This document shows positions 1 through 8,322 of a DNA stretch of 40,981 nt, piece after piece. How positions within the stretch are numbered: the first letter of the stretch is position 1; every line of letters starts with the position of its first letter. The stretch lies in sequence record NC_025445.1; one strand, written 5' to 3'. The notes beneath the pieces are model-generated. The model saw only the letters and a program-made list of their open reading frames with translations. It did not search any database and was not told where the DNA came from. The translations under genes were made by a program, and so were the position numbers. Source of the stretch: Escherichia phage J8-65.

Positions 1-259
1 TCGACCCGAAGGAGCGCCTGCGCCCCCGTACGCCTGTGCGCGTGCGCGTGCATGACGTGTGCGCATTATGCGTGCGTGCCTGCGCGTGCGGTATTGCTCG
101 CGTGCGTGCGGTATAGTTCGCGCGTGCCCGTTTCCATTGTCGCGGTGTGGTGCTGTGTGGTGCTGCGTCCTGCTGCTGCGTGCTGCGCCACTGCTACCAC
201 TGGACGCGCCTGCGCTGGGCTGCTGGTGCTGGGCGGTGCTGCTGTGTGTATCGGTGGCT
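1..259. repeat. left direct terminal repeat (DTR)
   Basis: bases 1-259 are identical to 40723-40981; GT-rich, A-poor; typical T7-supergroup terminal redundancy. Confidence 0.85.
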
Positions 260-686
260 GGGCGCGGGGCTATCTATCTTTTTTCGTGGCGCTGCTGTCA
301 TAGCTCGCTTGCTGTGTGTGCTGTGTGTCGTGTGCGGTACTGTGTGCCATCCTGCTACGCTACCGCCTGCGCCCTGTGTCTCCAGCTCATCGCGTCACTG
401 TGTAACACTCTGATACTTGCTATCCGTTCGCGTTCACTCAATCGTCACTCCGTGTCTCTTTCGTTCCGCTCCGCGCTCCGCTATCGCACTGCGTGCTGCG
501 TCGCTTACGCTGCGTATCGCTACAGCTATACACTACAGTTACTTTCATTTAATCATTGATTTAAAAGGATTTATTTACGGTTATTCTGCTGTGTGTAAGC
601 TACGCAATAACCTATTCAATCAAATATTTATTATCAATGATTCCAGTGACTTATCGCCTTTTTGAGCTATTCAGTGAAAATAATTC

Positions 687-715
687 TTGCAATGTTGTTT
701 GTGATTTGCTGTAAT
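687..715 (+). promoter_or_regulatory. sigma70-like early promoter (TTGCAA-N17-TGTAAT)
   Basis: -35 TTGCAA 687-692, 17-nt spacer, -10 TGTAAT 710-715, in AT-rich block upstream of first genes. Confidence 0.5.
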
Positions 716-792
716 TCATCTCGCCGGACGACACAGCGTTAACGTGTCGGACGGTGTAAGACGGTAACACTGTTCTTTAACAATCTGGTGTG

Positions 793-821
793 TTGACAAG
801 GCAAGCTCACTATGCTGTAAT
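793..821 (+). promoter_or_regulatory. sigma70-like early promoter (TTGACA-N17-TGTAAT)
   Basis: consensus -35 TTGACA 793-798, 17-nt spacer, -10 TGTAAT 816-821. Confidence 0.6.
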
Positions 822-928
822 GCTTCCAGTCAGTCAGCAAGCTAAACAGTCATGGATAAAGACGTTAAAACCCACGTAGGCGAACTGATACGGTTTAATC
901 ATCTCAGAATGGGCGCTGATTAAAACGG

Positions 929-957
929 TTGACAGGATGAAACGAGTATGCTGTAAT
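929..957 (+). promoter_or_regulatory. sigma70-like early promoter (TTGACA-N17-TGTAAT)
   Basis: -35 TTGACA 929-934, 17-nt spacer, -10 TGTAAT 952-957; same architecture as 793-821. Confidence 0.6.
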
Positions 958-1007
958 GCACACCAGATTGACAGGCAGCAAGCCAGTCAGTCAGAAGTAA
1001 AAAGTAG

Positions 1008-1036
1008 TTGACAAGCTGAATACGATGTGATGTAAT
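1008..1036 (+). promoter_or_regulatory. sigma70-like early promoter (TTGACA-N17-TGTAAT)
   Basis: -35 TTGACA 1008-1013, 17-nt spacer, -10 TGTAAT 1031-1036. Confidence 0.6.
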
Positions 1037-1467
1037 CAGCACCGAGTTGAAAGGTTGCAAAACAACCTGCTCTGAGTGAACGTAAACTGGCCACGTAGTG
1101 TCACGGCCTCATGGGTATCCGGCGCAGCTAGGAACTGGTGAGGGCACCGCCGAAAGGCAATAGGGGTAGCGCCCGGTGCAAGGGAACGGAGAAGCGCGAT
1201 AGACGCAGCGCAGTATCAGCACAATCCCGAACGTCTTATAAGGCGCGGAGTGTAGCGGGTAGGTAGGCAAGCTGGTAACGGTGAGCCGGACTGCTGGAGG
1301 ACTCCTGAGAGTGGATGCAGACAATATCCACGGCGCGAAATGGGCGGGGCGATTTTTCAGGGTAGTGAATCCGACAAGCCAATCAATGCCAACGAGTGCA
1401 GACTGTACGGCGCGTCACAATGGGTTCACTATCCACCTGAAAATAGCCAACAACTGGAGAAATCAAT

Positions 1468-1857
1468 ATGTACCGTATCTATGCAAGCGCATATCGTCAG
1501 GGCAACGCTGAGTCAGTCAATCTGGCACTGCACTGCAAGGCACTGCGAACGGTGCAGGACATGTTCGGAGTGATTCCGGTCACACTGACAGGCAAGTTCG
1601 ACAATGCGTATGAGTTACGCATGGTCTTCCCTGTCGATGGAATCTACGAAATCCGGCAGGCTGTTAAGCTGTTTTGTAAAGCCTTCGAACAGGACTGCAT
1701 CATGGTAGTGACCAAAGACGACGATGCAATCTTCATGGACTCACCGTATCCGGGCAAGCCTGCTGGCAAGCTGGTCAGCAAGACTAACGAGGAAATGGAA
1801 GCCGGGCAGTTCACTGCTTGGACTTACGACGGTGAGCAATTTTGGGTAGTGGAGTAA
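1468..1857 (+). CDS. hypothetical early protein (129 aa)
   Basis: ATG start, GGAG upstream, first ORF after promoter cluster. Confidence 0.6.
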   Translation: MYRIYASAYRQGNAESVNLALHCKALRTVQDMFGVIPVTLTGKFDNAYELRMVFPVDGIYEIRQAVKLFCKAFEQDCIMVVTKDDDAIFMDSPYPGKPAGKLVSKTNEEMEAGQFTAWTYDGEQFWVVE

Positions 1858-1868
1858 GGAGCATGACC

Positions 1869-1943
1869 ATGTCCACTGCACTGTGTGTTATTGCGGCGGC
1901 GTGCTGGGTCATTGACCAGCGACTGAGCCGTCGCCGTGGCTGA
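1869..1943 (+). CDS. putative 24-aa hydrophobic micropeptide
   Basis: AAGGAG 7 nt upstream of ATG 1869; MSTALCVIAAACWVIDQRLSRRRG (hydrophobic core, basic tail); below ORF-track cutoff. Confidence 0.2.
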   Translation: MSTALCVIAAACWVIDQRLSRRRG

Positions 1944-1949
1944 TAGCCT

Positions 1950-1971
1950 ATAGCGTCCTACGGGGCGCTAT
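1950..1971 (+). promoter_or_regulatory. post-stop GC-rich stem-loop
   Basis: ATAGCG-tcctacgggg-CGCTAT after micro-ORF stop. Confidence 0.3.
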
Positions 1972-2004
1972 GTGAAATCAACCAAACCGACAAGGGGTAA
2001 CATC

Positions 2005-2532
2005 ATGACTACTGTAAAATACACCGCGTTCAAAGACGCTGCGGCGCTGGATAAAGCTATCGAAGCGACCGTTAAAAAGGCGCACTCCCTCCGTAACGAG
2101 ATTCAGAACGTTGCGGTCGGCATTATCCTGCACGCTTACCATCACGGCGACTATACCCGTGCTGAATCCTTCACCAACCAACTGGGTGACGGCGTTCGTG
2201 GTAAAGCACTGGTTGACTGGTTCGTCCAGTTCGGCGGCCTGATTGTAGGCGAGCATGAGGGTGGCAAGTCTGGCTTCGTTGGCTGGAAAGGTGCCGACTT
2301 CATCAAGAAGAACATCGACAAGGCGAAAGCCACGATGTGGTGGACTTGCAAGCCGGAAGCGGCCTTCGAAGGCTTCGACCTGCAAGAAGCGCTGGACAAG
2401 CTCATTGCCAAAGCTGAGAAGGCAATGAACAAGGCCAATGAGCTGCGCCACGAAGGGCGCGATGAGGATGCGAACAAGGTTGTCGTGCCTCAGAACGTGC
2501 TGGATGGGCTGCGCAAGCTGAAAGCTGCGTGA
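2005..2532 (+). CDS. hypothetical early protein (175 aa)
   Basis: ATG 2005 with AAGGGG RBS (ORF-track start 1972 is GTG); function unknown. Confidence 0.6.
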   Translation: MTTVKYTAFKDAAALDKAIEATVKKAHSLRNEIQNVAVGIILHAYHHGDYTRAESFTNQLGDGVRGKALVDWFVQFGGLIVGEHEGGKSGFVGWKGADFIKKNIDKAKATMWWTCKPEAAFEGFDLQEALDKLIAKAEKAMNKANELRHEGRDEDANKVVVPQNVLDGLRKLKAA

Positions 2533-2539
2533 TTACTGA

Positions 2540-2563
2540 GAAGGCATTCAAGCGAGTGCCTTC
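2540..2563 (+). promoter_or_regulatory. post-stop GC-rich stem-loop
   Basis: TGATTACTGA then GAAGGCA-ttcaagcgag-TGCCTTC, 7-bp stem. Confidence 0.4.
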
Positions 2564-2610
2564 GATTGTAACCACGGCAATAATGCCACAATCCTAACTG
2601 GAGACTTAAT

Positions 2611-2922
2611 ATGTCCAAATTAACTGTAGTCCTGCTGAACAACCTGCCTGCCTCTGCTTTCGGTGAAGGCGTTAAACTGGAAGACGTGCAGAGCAAGCAG
2701 TACGTCGCAATCACTGACGGTCAGGGCTACCTGATTGCAGGCATCAACAAGGACGGCGACTCGAAGGAAGAAATCGAAGCGCACTTCCGTGAACAGGGTC
2801 TGGATGCTGACATGCCGCTGGCGCTCATCGCCATGCTGAACGGCGTGCCTTTCGTTGACGCTGCCGACGTTGTAGGCGCAGATATCGACGAGGTTTACAG
2901 CGTCGAGTCTGACGACGAGTAA
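2611..2922 (+). CDS. small acidic early protein, paralog 1 (103 aa)
   Basis: strongly acidic with C-terminal ESDDE; shares a D-x-Q-x-x-L...KDGD motif with next two genes. Confidence 0.65.
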   Translation: MSKLTVVLLNNLPASAFGEGVKLEDVQSKQYVAITDGQGYLIAGINKDGDSKEEIEAHFREQGLDADMPLALIAMLNGVPFVDAADVVGADIDEVYSVESDDE

Positions 2923-2936
2923 GCTGGGCTAACTGA

Positions 2937-2959
2937 CAGGCCATTCGATGAGTGGCCTG
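2937..2959 (+). promoter_or_regulatory. post-stop GC-rich stem-loop
   Basis: AACTGA then CAGGCCA-ttcgatgag-TGGCCTG. Confidence 0.4.
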
Positions 2960-2988
2960 AATTGTTATTCCAAGCCAAAGGAGGCTGC

Positions 2989-3258
2989 ATGATTCGTGTG
3001 AGTTTGGTCAAAGACGCATCCGGCAAGGTGGTATTCTACCTGCTGGACAATCAGAAAGGGCTGACCCTGCTGGCGTACGTCAAAGACGGCGACCCAAGTA
3101 CGCAGGAGATTCTGGACTTCCTGATTGGTCAAGAGACCTATAGCGAGCTGCTGTTTGACGTGTCTGGCCGCACCGAAGCTGCCAATATTGAGTACGTCGA
3201 GGAACAGCACGGCGAGGTGACGCTGGAGTTCATCGGCACCATCCCGTTCGCTGAGTGA
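2989..3258 (+). CDS. small acidic early protein, paralog 2 (89 aa)
   Basis: ATG 2989 after AAGGAGG (ORF-track start 2962 is TTG); LDNQKGLTLLAYVKDGD motif. Confidence 0.65.
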   Translation: MIRVSLVKDASGKVVFYLLDNQKGLTLLAYVKDGDPSTQEILDFLIGQETYSELLFDVSGRTEAANIEYVEEQHGEVTLEFIGTIPFAE

Positions 3259-3265
3259 TTACTGA

Positions 3266-3287
3266 CAGGCCATCTGCGGGTGGCCTG
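3266..3287 (+). promoter_or_regulatory. post-stop GC-rich stem-loop
   Basis: TGATTACTGA then CAGGCCA-tctgcggg-TGGCCTG; same stem as 2937-2959. Confidence 0.4.
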
Positions 3288-3328
3288 AACTGTACTCACC
3301 CAACAATCAAAGTCTAAGGAGACTTATC

Positions 3329-3604
3329 ATGGCAAATGGTTACATCGTACGTGGCACCGAATCAAACAAAGTCGTGGCCTACGCACTGGAAAAGAGCGGC
3401 CACTATCTGGCGCACACTCGCCGCGACAACGAGCCGACCGATAGCGAAGGCGTGTTGGCCGAACTGAAACGCGAAGGCGTGCCGCCTGAACTCATCTTCA
3501 TCCTGTCTGGTATCCAGATTCACGAACTGCAAGATGCAGCCAAGCGTGTGTGGGGTGAGGGCGTAGAGCTGGAGCACATCGGTATCGTGGACGAAGCTGC
3601 GTAA
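3329..3604 (+). CDS. small acidic early protein, paralog 3 (91 aa)
   Basis: TAAGGAG RBS; LEKSGHYLAHTRRDNEP motif related to paralogs 1 and 2. Confidence 0.6.
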   Translation: MANGYIVRGTESNKVVAYALEKSGHYLAHTRRDNEPTDSEGVLAELKREGVPPELIFILSGIQIHELQDAAKRVWGEGVELEHIGIVDEAA

Positions 3605-3619
3605 CAGCGGGATTGACTC

Positions 3620-3643
3620 AAGCCAGTGTCTCGGCGCTGGCTT
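3620..3643 (+). promoter_or_regulatory. post-stop GC-rich stem-loop
   Basis: AAGCCAG-tgtctcggcg-CTGGCTT. Confidence 0.35.
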
Positions 3644-3680
3644 TATGGCAATACTGCCCCATCCATTTGAGGATTTAAAC

Positions 3681-3932
3681 ATGGCTAAGTTCGAACTGGT
3701 AAAATTCATCGACCCGTCTGACAACTCTGAGACCTTTGCTCAGTTCACCGACGACCGCACACAGGTGGCTATCTACACCAGTGAGTCGGCGGCGCGTGAC
3801 AACTTCGGTGAAGAGATATTCTTCGATTCGGTTGAAGAAGTGCGCAAAGGTGGCGGCCCTTACGCTGATGCACTGGAAGCGGCGCTGGAAGAAGGCGAAG
3901 TCGTTGACACTCTGGACGACGACGAAGAGTAA
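3681..3932 (+). CDS. small highly acidic early protein (83 aa)
   Basis: ATG 3681 with GAGGA RBS; about 24 D/E vs 6 K/R; C-terminal DTLDDDEE. Confidence 0.6.
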   Translation: MAKFELVKFIDPSDNSETFAQFTDDRTQVAIYTSESAARDNFGEEIFFDSVEEVRKGGGPYADALEAALEEGEVVDTLDDDEE

Positions 3933-3944
3933 GCGTGACGCCCG

Positions 3945-3968
3945 GTTGCCTCCTTGCGAGGGGGCAAC
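3945..3968 (+). promoter_or_regulatory. post-stop GC-rich stem-loop
   Basis: GTTGCCTCC-ttgcga-GGGGGCAAC. Confidence 0.35.
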
Positions 3969-4004
3969 ATGGCAATCATGCCATAACCTACTGGAGTATT
4001 GAAC

Positions 4005-4418
4005 ATGACTAAACTCGTACTGATTCACGGCATCGCTGGTGAGAAATTTGACGACGGTATCTCTGCACCTGTGCTGGCGCTGGAAGGTGAAGAGACCTTC
4101 GCTGTGCTGCAAGGTCTGGCTGAGGGTAGCGATATGGTACTGGCATCAGAAACAATTATCGAACAAGCCAGCGCAATCCGTGAGGCCGAGCACCTGCGTG
4201 GTGTAGCCGCAACGCTCGGTCACTGCGCTGGTAACGGCGGCCTGCGTGGGCATTCGGTCGGCGGTGTATTCCCCTGCGTAATCTTCTCGAAGGGCAACCC
4301 ACATGTGCATCTCGACTGGTGTTTCCTCGCACCGAACGGCGATGAGTTCGACGGCTTCGTAAGTTATGAAGATGCGTATGCAGCCGCGCAACAATGGCTG
4401 GAGGAAAGAGAGGTATAG
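4005..4418 (+). CDS. hypothetical protein (137 aa)
   Basis: ATG 4005 with GGAG RBS (ORF-track start 3999 is TTG). Confidence 0.6.
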   Translation: MTKLVLIHGIAGEKFDDGISAPVLALEGEETFAVLQGLAEGSDMVLASETIIEQASAIREAEHLRGVAATLGHCAGNGGLRGHSVGGVFPCVIFSKGNPHVHLDWCFLAPNGDEFDGFVSYEDAYAAAQQWLEEREV

Positions 4419-4419
4419 T

Positions 4420-4716
4420 ATGAGCAGAAGTGCTAAGTGGGATGCGTTGGTTCAGTGGGTGAAGGACAGCTTCGGCCCACCACCACAGCGCGTGGAAGTT
4501 GCAGACCCTGAGCCATTCGAGTACGTGACCAAGACCAGTGAGCAACTGGAGATTGGTGACTACATAGTAGCGTACTCTGGTTATGTGCAGCGCATCGGTG
4601 CCGTCGAGTATGATGGCAAACGACTGGTCGTTACGAAGGCAGGCCATGCTCCTGAGTATGAGTTCTACGCCTACGAGAATGACAAGTTCTCTATCCGTAA
4701 AGTAAAAGGTAAATAA
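4420..4716 (+). CDS. hypothetical protein (98 aa)
   Basis: ATG 4420 after GAGGAAAGAGAGG RBS, abuts upstream stop. Confidence 0.55.
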   Translation: MSRSAKWDALVQWVKDSFGPPPQRVEVADPEPFEYVTKTSEQLEIGDYIVAYSGYVQRIGAVEYDGKRLVVTKAGHAPEYEFYAYENDKFSIRKVKGK

Positions 4717-4719
4717 ATC

Positions 4720-5235
4720 ATGGCTATTAACTTCGCAACATTTGACAAACAGCAGTTCGAAGTAACCAAACGTCTGGCCGCAGAGATTGACGAGCGCCCG
4801 GAAGTATCCGACGTGATTGAATTTCGTGGTGGCTTCCTGCCAAAGATGACGTACGTGGCAGCAATTAAGGCAGGCCGACTGGACATGGTGGATATCATCC
4901 CGCCGACCCGCACTGGTGCCATCATCGCACGCAACATCACACTGCTGGCTGGTCTCGGCACCAAGTCTCTGGATGCAGCAGGTGAAACAGAGCGTGCTGT
5001 TCAGCTCCGCATGGCGGCAACGTTGGCAATCCGTTTCGCATGTGAAGAGACGGTACACGCCAGCTACCACGACTGGTATCAGGCATGTGAGAATGTGCCT
5101 GCCGACCTGAGCGAGACGCACGCAAGTGTGCTGTTCGCTGGCGAGGTACTGGATGCCATGCTGCAACAGTTGAAGGAAGGACTGGGTGAGCTGCTGGCGG
5201 CGGCGAGCGAGGTGAAACGTGCAACGCTCCACTGA
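4720..5235 (+). CDS. hypothetical protein (171 aa)
   Basis: ATG start, tight packing with flanking genes. Confidence 0.6.
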   Translation: MAINFATFDKQQFEVTKRLAAEIDERPEVSDVIEFRGGFLPKMTYVAAIKAGRLDMVDIIPPTRTGAIIARNITLLAGLGTKSLDAAGETERAVQLRMAATLAIRFACEETVHASYHDWYQACENVPADLSETHASVLFAGEVLDAMLQQLKEGLGELLAAASEVKRATLH

Positions 5236-5239
5236 TTTA

Positions 5240-5392
5240 GTGGTGCGTAAATCACCCACTGGTAAACACTGGTGGGTGGTGTACGCTGACCTACCGGGCA
5301 GACCGTTTGCTGTCCGTGACACAAAGTGGCAGGCCGAAGCTAAGCGTGATGACCTGCAACGTATCGTAAACAGAATGGGAGTACCAGCATGA
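5240..5392 (+). CDS. possible small protein (about 50 aa, GTG start)
   Basis: open frame fills the gap between flanking genes and ends in ATGA overlap with next start; no clear RBS. Confidence 0.25.
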   Translation: MVRKSPTGKHWWVVYADLPGRPFAVRDTKWQAEAKRDDLQRIVNRMGVPA

Positions 5393-5631
5393 CCATCATC
5401 AAAGACGAAAGCAAACTCGAAGTCGGTTCCGCATACAAGCTGAGCGGCGGTGTGTTCTGTTCGGTTGCACTGGACGTGAACGCAGGCAAGTTCATCTTCA
5501 AAGGGCGTGACGAATACAACCCGGACATGCTGCACTTCGAAGGTGTTACCGATGGCCGGGCGCAGTTCTTGTACCCGGAGCGGCTGGCCGATGGGCAGTA
5601 TGATTTGTCCAAGGTTGAAACAATCAAGTGA
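5389..5631 (+). CDS. hypothetical protein (80 aa)
   Basis: ATG start, GGGAG upstream. Confidence 0.55.
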   Translation: MTIIKDESKLEVGSAYKLSGGVFCSVALDVNAGKFIFKGRDEYNPDMLHFEGVTDGRAQFLYPERLADGQYDLSKVETIK

Positions 5632-5663
5632 CTTACTCGTGGCATTTCGTGAGAGATGCCACC

Positions 5664-5903
5664 ATGAAAGTAACTGTATTGCACAACATCGGAGGAGATA
5701 TGCTCAAAGTAATATTGTTGTTCCTGCTTCTGGTAATTATTTGGGGAGCGTTATGGGTGGGTCTTGCATCACTGGTGCTTATCCCTGCGGTCGGTGAGTC
5801 AGCCACTTCAACACTGGGCACACTGCTCGGCATGTTGGTGGGCTGGGGTCTGATGCAGTTGAGCCTGAGTGTAGGCCAGAATCGGGGGTGGATTAAATGG
5901 TGA
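5664..5903 (+). CDS. small membrane protein with two predicted TM helices (79 aa)
   Basis: ATG 5664; VILLFLLLVIIWGALWVGLASLVLIPAV and LGTLLGMLVGWGLMQLSLSV hydrophobic segments. Confidence 0.55.
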   Translation: MKVTVLHNIGGDMLKVILLFLLLVIIWGALWVGLASLVLIPAVGESATSTLGTLLGMLVGWGLMQLSLSVGQNRGWIKW

Positions 5904-6337
5904 AGCCTAAGTATAAAGTCGGGGATGAAATCGTAGGCGACGAAGGCACTGGCACCCGGTCGGGTAAGCTGAGTATCATCGCTTGGGTTAACCCTGACCG
6001 CCGAGCGTGGGAGCGTAGCGGGGAGACTCGTTACATCGTGAGCTGGATTGGTGAGCGCCTGAATGCGCAGCCGGATATCAGCCACTACAAATCTGACTGG
6101 CTGGAAGAGAACACCAGTCTGGTCAGCACGCCAGCCGAGAAGCGCGGTCGGTTCATGTGCTTGGTCGAAGGCAGCAACGCGCCGCCGAAGGTTGAGCACA
6201 TCACTGAGCGCGAGGCGCGTGAAGAAGCTGAACGTCTGGCAGAGCGGTGCGGAGGTACTGTCCGTGTGCTGCAAGTTGTGGCCAGCGTGAAGATGAAGAA
6301 GAAGATTCTGTACACACCGGACTGGGATAACGAATGA
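5897..6337 (+). CDS. hypothetical protein (146 aa)
   Basis: ATG start overlapping upstream stop. Confidence 0.55.
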   Translation: MVKPKYKVGDEIVGDEGTGTRSGKLSIIAWVNPDRRAWERSGETRYIVSWIGERLNAQPDISHYKSDWLEENTSLVSTPAEKRGRFMCLVEGSNAPPKVEHITEREAREEAERLAERCGGTVRVLQVVASVKMKKKILYTPDWDNE

Positions 6338-7056: not shown

Positions 7057-8322
7057 GTGTTAGACAAACTGTTGCTCTCTGTCATGCGTGAGCGAGGGAA
7101 GTATAACTCCCTGCGCCATGCCATTCCAGAGGACACTATGAGTCAGACCACAGGCTACATGCTGCGTGCGTATGGCTCATACTTCGAGGCGTTCCCGGAT
7201 TCAGATTACGTGGATATGGAAACGCTAGGCACACACGTCCGGCTCAAGACTGGGAGTACACCGGAGCAGATGGCTGCGTTCGAATCGCTATGCCAGCAGC
7301 TCAAGGAATACCAGCCGACGAAGCAGCAGACCGAAGGCATCATCGACCAGTTAGTCGAGCTGGATACAGCAGGCAAGGTTAACCTCCTTGCGCAGAGGTA
7401 CGACAATGGCGATGAGATTGATTTCATCTATGAGCTGGGCCGCCTTGCAGAAGGCGCACGCCGCAGTCGAGGGCAGTCATCTGTCACTGATTACGTTGAC
7501 GATGATGTGGTTGATATTATCAATCGGACGGATGATGACCACGGTTTCAAGTTCGGTCTCATGTGTTTGCAGGACAGCGTTAGGGTACTTCTCCCCGGTG
7601 ACTCCGTTGCAATCGGCGCTCGACCCGACAGTGGCAAGACTTCCTTCATCGCGTTTAACCTTACGAGAATGGCGGCGACAGCAGCGAAGCTGTATCCGGG
7701 CCGACCAATCCTATGGTTCAACAACGAAGGGCAGGGCATCAACATCATCCCGCGCATCTACCAAGCGGCGCTCGGCTGTACGCTCCCGGAGTTAAAGGCA
7801 CTGGGTGCAGACAGGAAGAAGTTGCATGAGAAGTACGCGAAGGCGTTGAATGCTCCGGCCAACATCATACGTGTGAAGGACATGCACGGTGCAACGTTGG
7901 CCAAAGCGGAGCAGGTGATTGAAGCAATGAATCCCTGCATCGTGGTGTGGGATATGCTGGCAAACTTCAAGTTGTCTGTGGCTGACGCTAACAGCAACAA
8001 GGCCAGCCAAGTCGAGCAGCTCTGGCAGGAGGTACGTGAGCTGGCGGTACGTCATGACTTCGTATCGCTGGCTACGGTTCAGGTATCCGCAGACGGTGCC
8101 GACGATATGTTCCCCGCGCTAGACGCACTCAAGGATTCCAAGACTGGTATCCAAGGTGCGACCGATGTGATTGTCATGCTGGGTTCCGTTGACGACCCGG
8201 CGCTGGCAGCGAGGCGCGGCGTGAGCACTCCGAAGAACAAGCGGCAGATAGCTGGGCGTCCGTCCAACGTCCGTTCGCAGGTTCACTTCTATGCTGATAA
8301 ATGTCAATTCGAGGATATGTGA
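7057..8322 (+). CDS. DnaB-like replicative DNA helicase (421 aa)
   Basis: GTG start 5 nt after AGGAGG; Walker A GARPDSGKTS; position matches T7 gp4 helicase domain. Confidence 0.75.
   Translation: MLDKLLLSVMRERGKYNSLRHAIPEDTMSQTTGYMLRAYGSYFEAFPDSDYVDMETLGTHVRLKTGSTPEQMAAFESLCQQLKEYQPTKQQTEGIIDQLVELDTAGKVNLLAQRYDNGDEIDFIYELGRLAEGARRSRGQSSVTDYVDDDVVDIINRTDDDHGFKFGLMCLQDSVRVLLPGDSVAIGARPDSGKTSFIAFNLTRMAATAAKLYPGRPILWFNNEGQGINIIPRIYQAALGCTLPELKALGADRKKLHEKYAKALNAPANIIRVKDMHGATLAKAEQVIEAMNPCIVVWDMLANFKLSVADANSNKASQVEQLWQEVRELAVRHDFVSLATVQVSADGADDMFPALDALKDSKTGIQGATDVIVMLGSVDDPALAARRGVSTPKNKRQIAGRPSNVRSQVHFYADKCQFEDM

What the first reader, a model, noticed from the sequence alone, without database searches (positions are those of the whole stretch)
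1869..1943. Possible 24-residue hydrophobic micropeptide with its own Shine-Dalgarno
AAGGAG sits 7 nt upstream of ATG 1869. The ORF encodes MSTALCVIAAACWVIDQRLSRRRG, a hydrophobic stretch with a basic tail that looks like a single-pass membrane micropeptide. It lies between the first two early genes and is below the ORF-track length cutoff.
Basis: seen in the sequence. Interest (0 to 1): 0.3.

Follow-up and report, generated by a model that had tools for sequence, protein, structure and literature searches.

The report
Unannotated 24-residue phage early micropeptide gene
A 24-codon reading frame just after the anti-restriction (SAM lyase) gene of this T7-like phage is a real, conserved but never-annotated gene for a small hydrophobic peptide, one example of a recurring type of tiny early phage gene whose function is still unknown.

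Summary
AAGGAG lies at 1856-1861, 7 nt before ATG 1869, and the ORF 1869-1943 encodes MSTALCVIAAACWVIDQRLSRRRG. It sits between the SAM lyase gene (1468-1857) and the next early gene (2005-2532).

The window is a Bonnellvirus (J8-65-like) phage. The ORF is intact in 17 of 18 related GenBank records and in one further IMG/VR genome. None annotates it, and it is absent from a 15-billion-protein collection.

Its dN/dS is 0.23, against 0.13 and 0.22 for the flanking genes. None of 2000 column shuffles reaches its pN/pS, and the other two frames carry stops. Two different gene junctions both keep a Shine-Dalgarno 6-7 nt before the same ATG. Phage HHU8 has deleted the ORF cleanly, so it is dispensable.

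The stop codon lies in the lower stem of a covarying two-helix RNA element (1937-1984) shaped like the T3/T7 RNase III site R0.5. That sequence was once predicted to be the KP34 promoter and later shown inactive.

Unrelated hydrophobic micro-ORFs of 23-33 aa occupy the same position in other Bonnellvirus, Era103-like and KP34-like phages.

Best reading: a translated early peptide anchored in the membrane. Its target is unknown.

The parts
1468..1857 (+). S-adenosylmethionine lyase (SAMase, anti-restriction) gene. It is the first early gene and the upstream cistron of the micro-ORF.
   Evidence: Pfam PF23780 E 4.9e-26; PHROG 2226; annotated 'anti-restriction SAMase' in relatives.
1856..1861 (+). 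Shine-Dalgarno AAGGAG, overlapping the SAM-lyase stop codon, 7 nt upstream of ATG 1869.
   Evidence: Read from the sequence. Relatives have either TAAGGRG..ATG or GGAGGCGTAAYATG, each placing an SD 6-7 nt before the same ATG.
1869..1943 (+). Micropeptide gene: 24 codons plus TGA, encoding MSTALCVIAAACWVIDQRLSRRRG.
   Evidence: Intact in 17/18 Bonnellvirus-type GenBank records, IMG/VR L021 and one metagenome contig. dN/dS 0.23; 0/2000 column shuffles reach its pN/pS; other frames hold stops.
1937..1984 (+). Two-helix RNA element, probably an RNase III-type processing site. Lower helix 1937-1944/1977-1984 contains the last codon and the stop of the micro-ORF. Internal loop AGCC (1945-1948) / UGAA (1973-1976). 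Upper helix 1949-1958/1963-1972. UACG tetraloop 1959-1962.
   Evidence: On 27 distinct sequences, 91% of cells are paired, 12/18 pairs change on both sides and 0/500 shuffles reach the score. Same shape as the annotated T3 R0.5 and the equivalent T7 site. MFE -25.3 kcal/mol, z -4.35.
2005..2532 (+). Second early gene (175 aa, function unknown). It is the first cistron after the RNA element.
   Evidence: PHROG 1448 E 6e-52; annotated hypothetical protein in relatives.

Best explanation
ORF 1869-1943 is a genuine, translated early (class I) gene of this Bonnellvirus phage.

Host RNA polymerase transcribes it from the left-end promoters on the same mRNA as the SAM-lyase anti-restriction gene. Ribosomes start at ATG 1869 using the SD that overlaps the SAM-lyase stop, or by stop/start coupling in relatives where only 1 nt separates the stop from the ATG.

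The mRNA unit 'SAM lyase + micropeptide' is closed by a two-helix RNA element. That element most likely serves as an RNase III processing site, as R0.5 does after gene 0.4 in T7 and after the SAMase gene in T3.

The product is a 24-residue peptide. Its N-terminal 15 hydrophobic residues probably sit in the inner membrane (N-out), with the basic tail DQRLSRRRG at the cytoplasmic face. It probably acts in trans on a host membrane component as a dispensable host-takeover, anti-defence or exclusion accessory.

Shown: the ORF and SD, their conservation, purifying selection, and covariation in the RNA structure. Inferred: translation, membrane insertion, RNase III cleavage and the trans-acting role. 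My estimates are about 0.9 for a protein-coding gene under selection, about 0.65 for membrane association, and well under 0.3 for any one specific target.
For: Conservation: the ORF is intact in 17/18 related GenBank records, one further IMG/VR genome and one metagenome contig, with 12 distinct nucleotide versions.

Coding signal: pooled dN/dS is 0.23, against 0.13 for the SAM lyase and 0.22 for gene 2. None of 2000 column shuffles gives an equal or lower pN/pS. Frames +1 and +2 have stops in 16/17 and 14/17 sequences and dN/dS above 1. Ser20 is kept through AGC<->TCT.

Initiation: two different junctions with the SAM lyase put the ORF in different frames relative to it (+2 and +1), yet both keep an SD 6-7 nt before the same ATG. 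That excludes a frameshift fusion.

Composition: replacements are conservative (V/I/L/A, T/A, R/K), and the hydrophobic-then-basic design is kept.

Architecture: the stop codon sits in the lower helix of a covarying RNA element shaped like the annotated T3 R0.5. T7 has the same order, 0.3 - small gene 0.4 - R0.5.

Recurrence: unrelated hydrophobic micro-ORFs fill the same slot elsewhere. These are a 27-aa ORF in the forsur clade, where all 3 nucleotide differences are synonymous; a 27-aa ORF in Era103-like phages, with 9 synonymous versus 1 nonsynonymous codon change by my reading (10 records); and 23-, 30- and 33-aa ORFs in KP34-like phages.
Against: There is no direct evidence of translation or localisation.

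The hydrophobic segment is only 15 residues and Ala-rich (summed Hessa dG -0.6 kcal/mol in the window, -1.8 to -2.5 in relatives). That is marginal for spanning a bilayer.

The family is confined to one genus. It matches no Pfam, PHROG, NCBIfam, PADLOC or PDB entry. It has no homologue in plasmids or E. coli genomes.

HHU8 deleted it cleanly and is still a viable phage.

The dN/dS is pooled over non-independent pairs of a 72-nt alignment.

The most invariant codons (C12 W13 and D16 Q17 R18) also form an invariant 6-bp hairpin, UGCUGG/CCAGCG, so part of the conservation could act at the RNA level.

Clustering of the variable residues on one helical face is not significant (P about 0.1).
Confidence: 0.6

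Rival explanations
1. Cis-acting 'coupling' ORF. The act of translating up to the RNA element matters, but the peptide does not. Translation would keep ribosomes on the transcript, mask Rho or RNase E entry sites, or time opening of the lower helix and so RNase III cleavage.
For: In every lineage the last ORF before the element stops 6-22 nt before the element core, in or just upstream of the lower helix, or inside the element itself in LIMEzero. In the Klebsiella phage Putnam, and in contigs L054, L060 and L074, a 7-codon ORF (MVGYGEG) with a strong SD ends 3 nt before the core. HHU8 lives without the micro-ORF but kept the 17 nt that form the lower helix.
Against: A purely cis role does not predict dN/dS 0.23, conservative replacements, or Ser kept via AGC<->TCT. 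It also does not predict that unrelated ORFs in the same slot are all strongly hydrophobic. LIMEzero, T3 and L078 work with the SAM-lyase stop placed directly at the hairpin.
Confidence: 0.12
2. Soluble or peripheral peptide that works with the SAM lyase as a subunit, chaperone or regulator, or that targets Met/SAM metabolism, rather than an integral membrane peptide.
For: There is tight stop/start coupling to the SAM-lyase gene in Bonnellvirus. An unrelated micro-ORF follows the SAM lyase in Era103-like phages. The hydrophobic stretch is short for a transmembrane helix.
Against: The SAM lyases of LIMEzero, T3, L078 and HHU8 have no such partner. In Tapenade and Nifs112 a 32-aa ORF separates the two genes. 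KP34-like phages carry similar peptides in contexts where I saw no SAM-lyase gene.
Confidence: 0.12
3. Type I-toxin-like or holin-like peptide that perturbs the membrane non-specifically (depolarisation, host shut-off or lysis timing).
For: Its size, composition and basic end resemble IbsC, TisB and ShoB as I recall them.
Against: It matches no toxin or holin family. It would be expressed at the very start of infection, when membrane energisation is still needed. It is much less hydrophobic than IbsC. An invariant polar motif, D16-Q17-R18, points to specific contacts.
Confidence: 0.1
4. Not a gene. The ORF would be a by-product of conserved non-coding sequence such as RNA structure or a promoter.
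For: It is unannotated in all 17 GenBank records that hold it and absent from the 15-billion-protein collection. There is an invariant internal 6-bp hairpin. Short ORFs with SD cores occur 5 times in the window.
Against: Variation is enriched at third codon positions and is synonymous. The open frame is kept only in frame 0. No shuffle of 2000 reaches its pN/pS. The long-range pairing predicted within the ORF in the window is not kept in the consensus fold of the relatives. No covariation supports the internal hairpin.
Confidence: 0.06

Closest known systems
T7 gene 0.4 (gp0.4, 51 aa, FtsZ inhibitor)
   Same: Same genomic slot. It is a small ORF tightly coupled to the 3' end of the anti-restriction gene (0.3) and is the last cistron before the RNase III site R0.5. 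It is an early class I gene and non-essential (function from PMC4944311 and PMC13423816 as listed).
   Different: gp0.4 is twice as long, not hydrophobic and shows no sequence similarity. Nothing suggests FtsZ as a target here.
T7 gene 0.5 (gp0.5, 47 aa)
   Same: A small hydrophobic class I protein ending in a basic tail (…IIKGALRK). It is described as uncharacterised with a putative transmembrane helix (PMC12798971).
   Different: It lies after R0.5, not before it, and is twice as long and Gly-rich. It has no detectable similarity to the window peptide. Its function is also unknown, so it offers no mechanism.
33-aa 'hypothetical protein' of KP34-like Klebsiella phages (e.g. BUCT790, FK1979; MYFLMVGTVLIILTVAVGCIQQLLREHKQKQGK)
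   Same: Same design (N-terminal hydrophobic helix, then a Cys, then a polar/basic tail). It has a strong SD and is the last ORF before the same conserved RNA element in the early region.
   Different: No detectable homology. It is longer, with an 18-20-residue hydrophobic core. It is annotated under the match in 11 of 12 records because it exceeds gene-caller length limits.
Bacterial small membrane proteins and type I toxins (IbsC, TisB, ShoB; AcrZ, MgtS, KdpF), from my own knowledge
   Same: Size range of 19-50 aa, a single hydrophobic helix, and charged ends that obey the positive-inside rule.
   Different: It matches none of their families. No antisense RNA partner was looked for or seen. 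It is a phage early gene, and its hydrophobic segment is shorter and richer in Ala.
T3/T7 RNase III processing site R0.5 (comparison for the RNA element 1937-1984)
   Same: An 8-bp lower helix, an internal loop, a 10-11-bp upper helix and a small loop. It sits directly after the stop codon of the SAMase gene (T3) or of gene 0.4 (T7) and before the next cistron.
   Different: The primary sequence differs. The upper helix and the AGCC/UGAA loop are nearly invariant across genera. Cleavage has not been shown.

Membership tests
Single-pass inner-membrane micropeptide (N-out/C-in) | A hydrophobic segment long enough to span the bilayer (about 18-20 residues, or a favourable insertion energy) | tested here: inconclusive
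   There are only 15 uncharged residues (M1-I15). Summed Hessa dG is -0.63 kcal/mol in the window and -1.8 to -2.5 in relatives; mean KD is 2.2-2.7.
Single-pass inner-membrane micropeptide (N-out/C-in) | Positive-inside charge distribution | tested here: met
   There is no charge in residues 1-15. The tail DQRLS[RK]R[RA]G has 3-4 basic residues and is conserved.
Single-pass inner-membrane micropeptide (N-out/C-in) | Experimental membrane localisation | not testable with these tools
   This needs fractionation or imaging of a tagged peptide.
Type I toxins (Ibs/Ldr/Hok/TisB/ShoB) | Match to a toxin family model | tested here: not met
   No Pfam, NCBIfam or PHROG family at E <= 1-10.
Type I toxins (Ibs/Ldr/Hok/TisB/ShoB) | A cognate antisense RNA antitoxin, and toxicity on expression | not tested
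   I did not search for an antisense promoter. Toxicity needs an experiment.
T7 gp0.4 / gp0.5 families | Sequence similarity to gp0.4 or gp0.5 | tested here: not met
   blastp-short finds no alignment of the window peptide to either protein at E <= 10.
T7 gp0.4 / gp0.5 families | Position: a small class I ORF between the anti-restriction gene and the first downstream RNase III-type site | tested here: met
   The order is SAM lyase, micro-ORF, two-helix element in the window, and 0.3, 0.4, R0.5 in T7.
Bacterial lipoprotein signal peptide | Lipobox [LVI][ASTVI][GAS]C with a basic n-region | tested here: not met
   AAAC before C12 would fit, but Kc261, RZ4 and Lidtsur have AALC, with Leu at -1. 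No basic n-region exists (read from the sequences).
T7-type RNase III processing site (for element 1937-1984) | Two stacked helices of about 8 + 10 bp separated by an internal loop, between cistrons of the early polycistronic mRNA | tested here: met
   Fold and covariation. The shape matches the annotated T3 R0.5.
T7-type RNase III processing site (for element 1937-1984) | Cleavage by host RNase III | not testable with these tools
   This needs in vitro cleavage, or end mapping in rnc+ versus rnc- hosts.
KP34-type phage RNA polymerase promoter (Eriksson 2015 consensus) | Sequence match to AGCCTATAGCGTCCTACGGGGCGCTATGTGAA | tested here: met
   Window 1945-1976 is identical to the published consensus.
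KP34-type phage RNA polymerase promoter (Eriksson 2015 consensus) | Directs transcription by the phage RNA polymerase | not testable with these tools
   Not tested here. In the literature, Lu et al. 2019 found no transcript from this region with purified KP34 RNAP, and the true promoters are unrelated (PMC6834552). G·U pairs and compensatory changes argue for an RNA element on the + strand.

The most novel reading that the evidence does not exclude
Hydrophobic micropeptides of 23-33 residues form a convergent and largely invisible class of early effectors in KP34-, Bonnellvirus- and Era103-type Autographiviridae. They would have been acquired repeatedly and independently as the last cistron before an RNase III-type site. 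In two lineages they are coupled to the SAM lyase because they act in the same anti-defence pathway. For example, they might block a membrane transporter or a membrane-bound defence component so that SAM depletion or restriction evasion is complete.
Probability: 0.1. Interest if true: 0.7.

Novelty: new member of a known kind. Interest (0 to 1): 0.4.

Why it matters
The finding adds a conserved gene to a phage genus in which all 17 deposited records that hold it miss it. It also shows that gene callers systematically drop a recurring type of early gene: hydrophobic peptides shorter than about 30 codons placed just before RNA processing sites.

Early genes of T7-like phages are a rich source of host-takeover and anti-defence factors, so a new peptide coupled to an anti-restriction enzyme is a reasonable candidate for functional screening.

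As a by-product, the sequence long listed as the 'KP34 phage promoter consensus', later shown to be inactive as a promoter, now has a testable alternative reading as a structured RNA processing site.

Tried and rejected
The representative search and structure prediction need at least 30 aa, so I did not try them.
- The first metagenome pattern was rejected for having too few specified bases. The second found one true copy and four chance matches in GC-rich contigs.
- IMG/VR returned only the window itself, one further relative and Lidtsur.
- Pfam, PHROGs, NCBIfam, PADLOC, PDB, plasmids and E. coli genomes gave nothing.
- Rfam gave nothing relevant in 1-6000.
- The promoter/terminator scan did not call the hairpin as a terminator, because it has no U tract.
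- I rejected a frameshift fusion to the SAM lyase, because the frame offset differs between the two junction types.
- I rejected a lipoprotein signal peptide, because the lipobox is broken in three relatives.
- I rejected a phage-RNAP promoter reading of the downstream element.
- I rejected a long-range RNA pairing inside the ORF. It is predicted in the window but not kept in relatives.
- The helical-face conservation test was not significant (P about 0.1).
- The peptide-pattern search with the SAM lyase found only 4 loci, so I used tblastn instead.

Full report
**What the window is.** The 40,981-nt window is a complete T7-like (Autographiviridae) genome, held in IMG/VR as IMGVR_UViG_2706795724_000001. 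Its nearest relatives are Bonnellvirus (J8-65-like) phages of E. coli, Enterobacter, Kosakonia, Cronobacter and Pantoea, at 83-90% identity over 1400-2600. The left end carries TTGACA/TGTAAT host-type promoters, as I read them from the sequence. A roughly 430-nt leader follows, and then a string of small early genes, each followed by a hairpin.

**Checking the observation.**
- The first gene (1468-1857) is an S-adenosylmethionine lyase (Pfam PF23780, E 4.9e-26).
- Its stop codon TAA (1855-1857) overlaps AAGGAG (1856-1861).
- Seven nucleotiDes later, ATG 1869 opens 24 codons that end at TGA 1941-1943.
- The next gene starts at 2005.

**Is it a gene?** None of the 17 GenBank records that hold the sequence annotates it. 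None of ten start or sequence variants is present in a 15-billion-protein collection.

The frame is nevertheless intact in 17 of 18 related GenBank records, in IMG/VR locus L021 and in one metagenome contig. Its consensus is MF[TA]ALC[VI][IVL]AA[AL]CW[VLA][IV]DQRL[SP][RK]R[RA]G.

Among 12 distinct nucleotide versions, pooled dN/dS is 0.23. That is the same range as the two annotated neighbours (0.13 and 0.22). No column shuffle out of 2000 gives as low a pN/pS. The two alternative frames hold stops in 14-16 of 17 sequences and give dN/dS above 1, and Ser20 is preserved through an AGC/TCT switch.

Two junction types exist: GAG-TAA-GGRG-n-ATGACY-ATG and GGAGGCGTAAY-ATG. They place the ORF in different frames relative to the SAM lyase, yet both keep an SD 6-7 nt before the same ATG. 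This argues for independent or coupled initiation and against a frameshift product.

HHU8 has removed the first 20 codons cleanly and kept the 17 nt that belong to the downstream RNA element. The gene is therefore dispensable, as T7 class I genes typically are (my own knowledge).

One caveat applies. The codons for C12-W13 and D16-Q17-R18 also form an invariant 6-bp hairpin with no covariation, so some constraint could act at the RNA level.

**The element just downstream.** The 41 nt after the ORF are about 97% identical in more than 160 Klebsiella KP34-like phages and occur one to three times per genome in about 50 IMG/VR contigs.

Alignment of 27 distinct copies shows a 10-bp upper helix capped mostly by UACG, UGCG or UAUG loops. 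It also shows an almost invariant AGCC/UGAA internal loop and an 8-bp lower helix whose sequence differs completely between sites but stays complementary. Overall 91% of cells are paired against 28-43% when the partner is slid. All eight lower-helix pairs change on both sides, and 0 of 500 shuffles reach the score.

The shape matches the annotated RNase III site R0.5 of T3, which directly follows the T3 SAMase gene, and the equivalent T7 site, which follows gene 0.4.

This same sequence was published as the predicted Kp34likevirus phage promoter (PMC4411677). Purified KP34 RNA polymerase did not transcribe from it (PMC6834552).

In the window the lower helix (1937-1944) contains the last codon and the stop of the micro-ORF. 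The peptide gene is therefore the last cistron of the unit 'SAM lyase + micropeptide'. RNase III cleavage itself is inferred, not shown.

**What the peptide is like.** It has 15 uncharged, Ala/Cys/Val/Ile-rich residues followed by DQRLSRRRG. The net charge is +3, and the summed Hessa insertion energy is -0.6 kcal/mol in the window and -1.8 to -2.5 in relatives. This fits an N-out/C-in membrane anchor but is short for a full span. The variable positions (3, 7, 8, 11, 14, 15) lean to one helical face, but not significantly (P about 0.1). Protein family libraries, PDB, plasmids and E. coli genomes give no match.

**A recurring pattern.** The same slot holds other, unrelated hydrophobic micro-ORFs.
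- A second, 27-aa ORF (MWDLLVALFWFVFAGLWIYWLTRPKLW) lies 1 nt after the first in forsur, glasur, usur, ROV85 and LF82-23. All three nucleotide differences seen between the copies I read are synonymous.
- A 27-aa ORF (MIKNTGFAWAIAFSGSFWLAVVYY[GS]FN) is found downstream of the SAM lyase in all ten Era103-like records. It lies directly after it in Era103 and after an extra 32-aa ORF in Tapenade and Nifs112. By my reading there are nine synonymous and one nonsynonymous codon differences between Era103 and Tapenade. The ORF ends inside a hairpin of the same type.
- ORFs of 23, 30 and 33 aa occur in KP34-like phages. The 33-aa one is under an annotated 'hypothetical protein' in 11 of 12 matching records.

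No pairwise homology is detectable among these families, or to T7 gp0.4 or gp0.5. LIMEzero, T3 and contig L078 have no micro-ORF between the SAM lyase and the hairpin. The association with the SAM lyase is therefore frequent but not obligatory.

**Interpretation.** The best-supported reading is a real, translated, dispensable early gene for a membrane-associated micropeptide. It would be co-expressed with the anti-restriction enzyme and act in trans on an unknown host membrane target.
- The main rival is a purely cis-acting translated spacer that modulates the RNA element. The stop codon sits in or next to the lower helix almost everywhere, and Putnam-type phages carry a 7-codon ORF there, which makes this rival plausible. 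It does not explain the amino-acid-level selection or the consistent hydrophobicity.
- A SAM-lyase partner and a toxin-like membrane disruptor are the other live alternatives.
- A spurious ORF is unlikely.

**Novelty and score.** Small hydrophobic class I proteins are known in T7 (gp0.5, uncharacterised; PMC12798971), and similar 33-aa proteins are annotated in Klebsiella phages. This is therefore a new, previously unannotated member of a known kind, with no known function. I rate interest at about 0.4. It is a solid hidden gene with a useful wider pattern, but it would not surprise specialists, and no mechanism can be assigned without experiments.

Noticed in passing
window 1937-1984 (core 1945-1976); also L012, L013, L028-L078: The published 'Kp34likevirus phage promoter consensus' AGCCTATAGCGTCCTACGGGGCGCTATGTGAA is inactive with KP34 RNAP according to Lu 2019. 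Here it behaves as a covarying two-helix RNA element shaped like the T3/T7 RNase III site R0.5. It sits next to a stop codon and 20-35 nt before the next start codon. It is not in Rfam.
   Followed up: yes
L004:1136-1219, L006:1143-1226, L011:1135-1218 (forsur, LF82-23, ROV85; also glasur, usur): A second unannotated 27-aa hydrophobic micro-ORF (MWDLLVALFWFVFAGLWIYWLTRPKLW) is inserted 1 nt after the first micro-ORF and ends in the lower helix of the RNA element. The 3 nucleotide differences seen between the copies I read are all synonymous.
   Followed up: partly
L085:1108-1191 (Era103); L086:351-434 (Tapenade); L087:351-434 (Nifs112): An unannotated 27-aa hydrophobic micro-ORF lies downstream of the SAM lyase in all 10 Era103-like (Eracentumvirus) records. 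By my reading there are 9 synonymous versus 1 nonsynonymous codon change between Era103 and Tapenade. It ends in a hairpin with the same internal loop but a different upper-helix sequence.
   Followed up: partly
L040:2237-2308; L057 (- strand) 1021-1113; L071:5330-5422; L074 (- strand) 7473-7574: KP34-like contigs carry further unrelated hydrophobic micro-ORFs of 23, 30 and 33 aa that terminate at the same RNA element. The 30- and 33-aa ones have strong SDs. The 33-aa family lies under an annotated 'hypothetical protein' in 11 of 12 Klebsiella phage records.
   Followed up: partly
L005 (HHU8) about 1055-1100: HHU8 has cleanly deleted the first 20 codons of the micro-ORF, which creates a new TAG stop for the SAM lyase. 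It retains the last 17 nt and the RNA element.
   Followed up: partly
L050, L065, L077 (IMG/VR KP34-like contigs): Some copies of the RNA element combine the 5' lower arm of one site type (TAATTAC) with the 3' arm of another (TGCAACT). This looks like deletion of the intervening gene(s) by recombination between two copies, and it leaves an unpaired lower helix.
   Followed up: no
L012:1478-1501 (Putnam); also L054, L060, L074: A 7-codon ORF (MVGYGEG) with a strong SD (GGGAGGTG) sits between two copies of the RNA element and stops 3 nt before the second core. It could be a gene remnant or a cis-acting mini-ORF.
   Followed up: no
window 2528-2576, 2937-2959, 3255-3299, 3620-3643, 3945-3968: Every early gene in this stretch is followed by a stable hairpin. 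At least two (2528-2576 and 3255-3299) have the same lower-helix, internal-loop, upper-helix shape. The one at about 3612-3646 has T7-like GACUCAAG…CUUUAUG flanks. A 42-nt stretch around the 2540-2563 hairpin is 95% identical in LIMEzero.
   Followed up: partly
window 1030-1467: A leader of about 430 nt, GC-rich and without an ORF, lies between the last host-type promoter and the first gene. It is 74-99% conserved and unannotated in 17 of 18 Bonnellvirus records. Its predicted folding energy has z = -2.4, and it has no Rfam match.
   Followed up: partly
window 793-821, 929-957, 1008-1036: There are three near-identical host-type promoters (TTGACA, 17 nt, TGTAAT). The consensus scan missed them because position 2 of the -10 hexamer is G.
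   Followed up: no
window 1-500: The left end is 59-67% GC and strongly depleted in A on the + strand (AT skew -0.5 to -0.69). It contains many short GTGCG/CTGCTG-type repeats.
   Followed up: no
L013:2888-2956 (LIMEzero ORF3): LIMEzero annotates a 22-aa ORF (MMIGAVPNSWWGLIPPLPVNDSK) overlapping the stop of gene 2 and ending just before the next hairpin. This is another very small ORF in the equivalent slot one gene further on.
   Followed up: no
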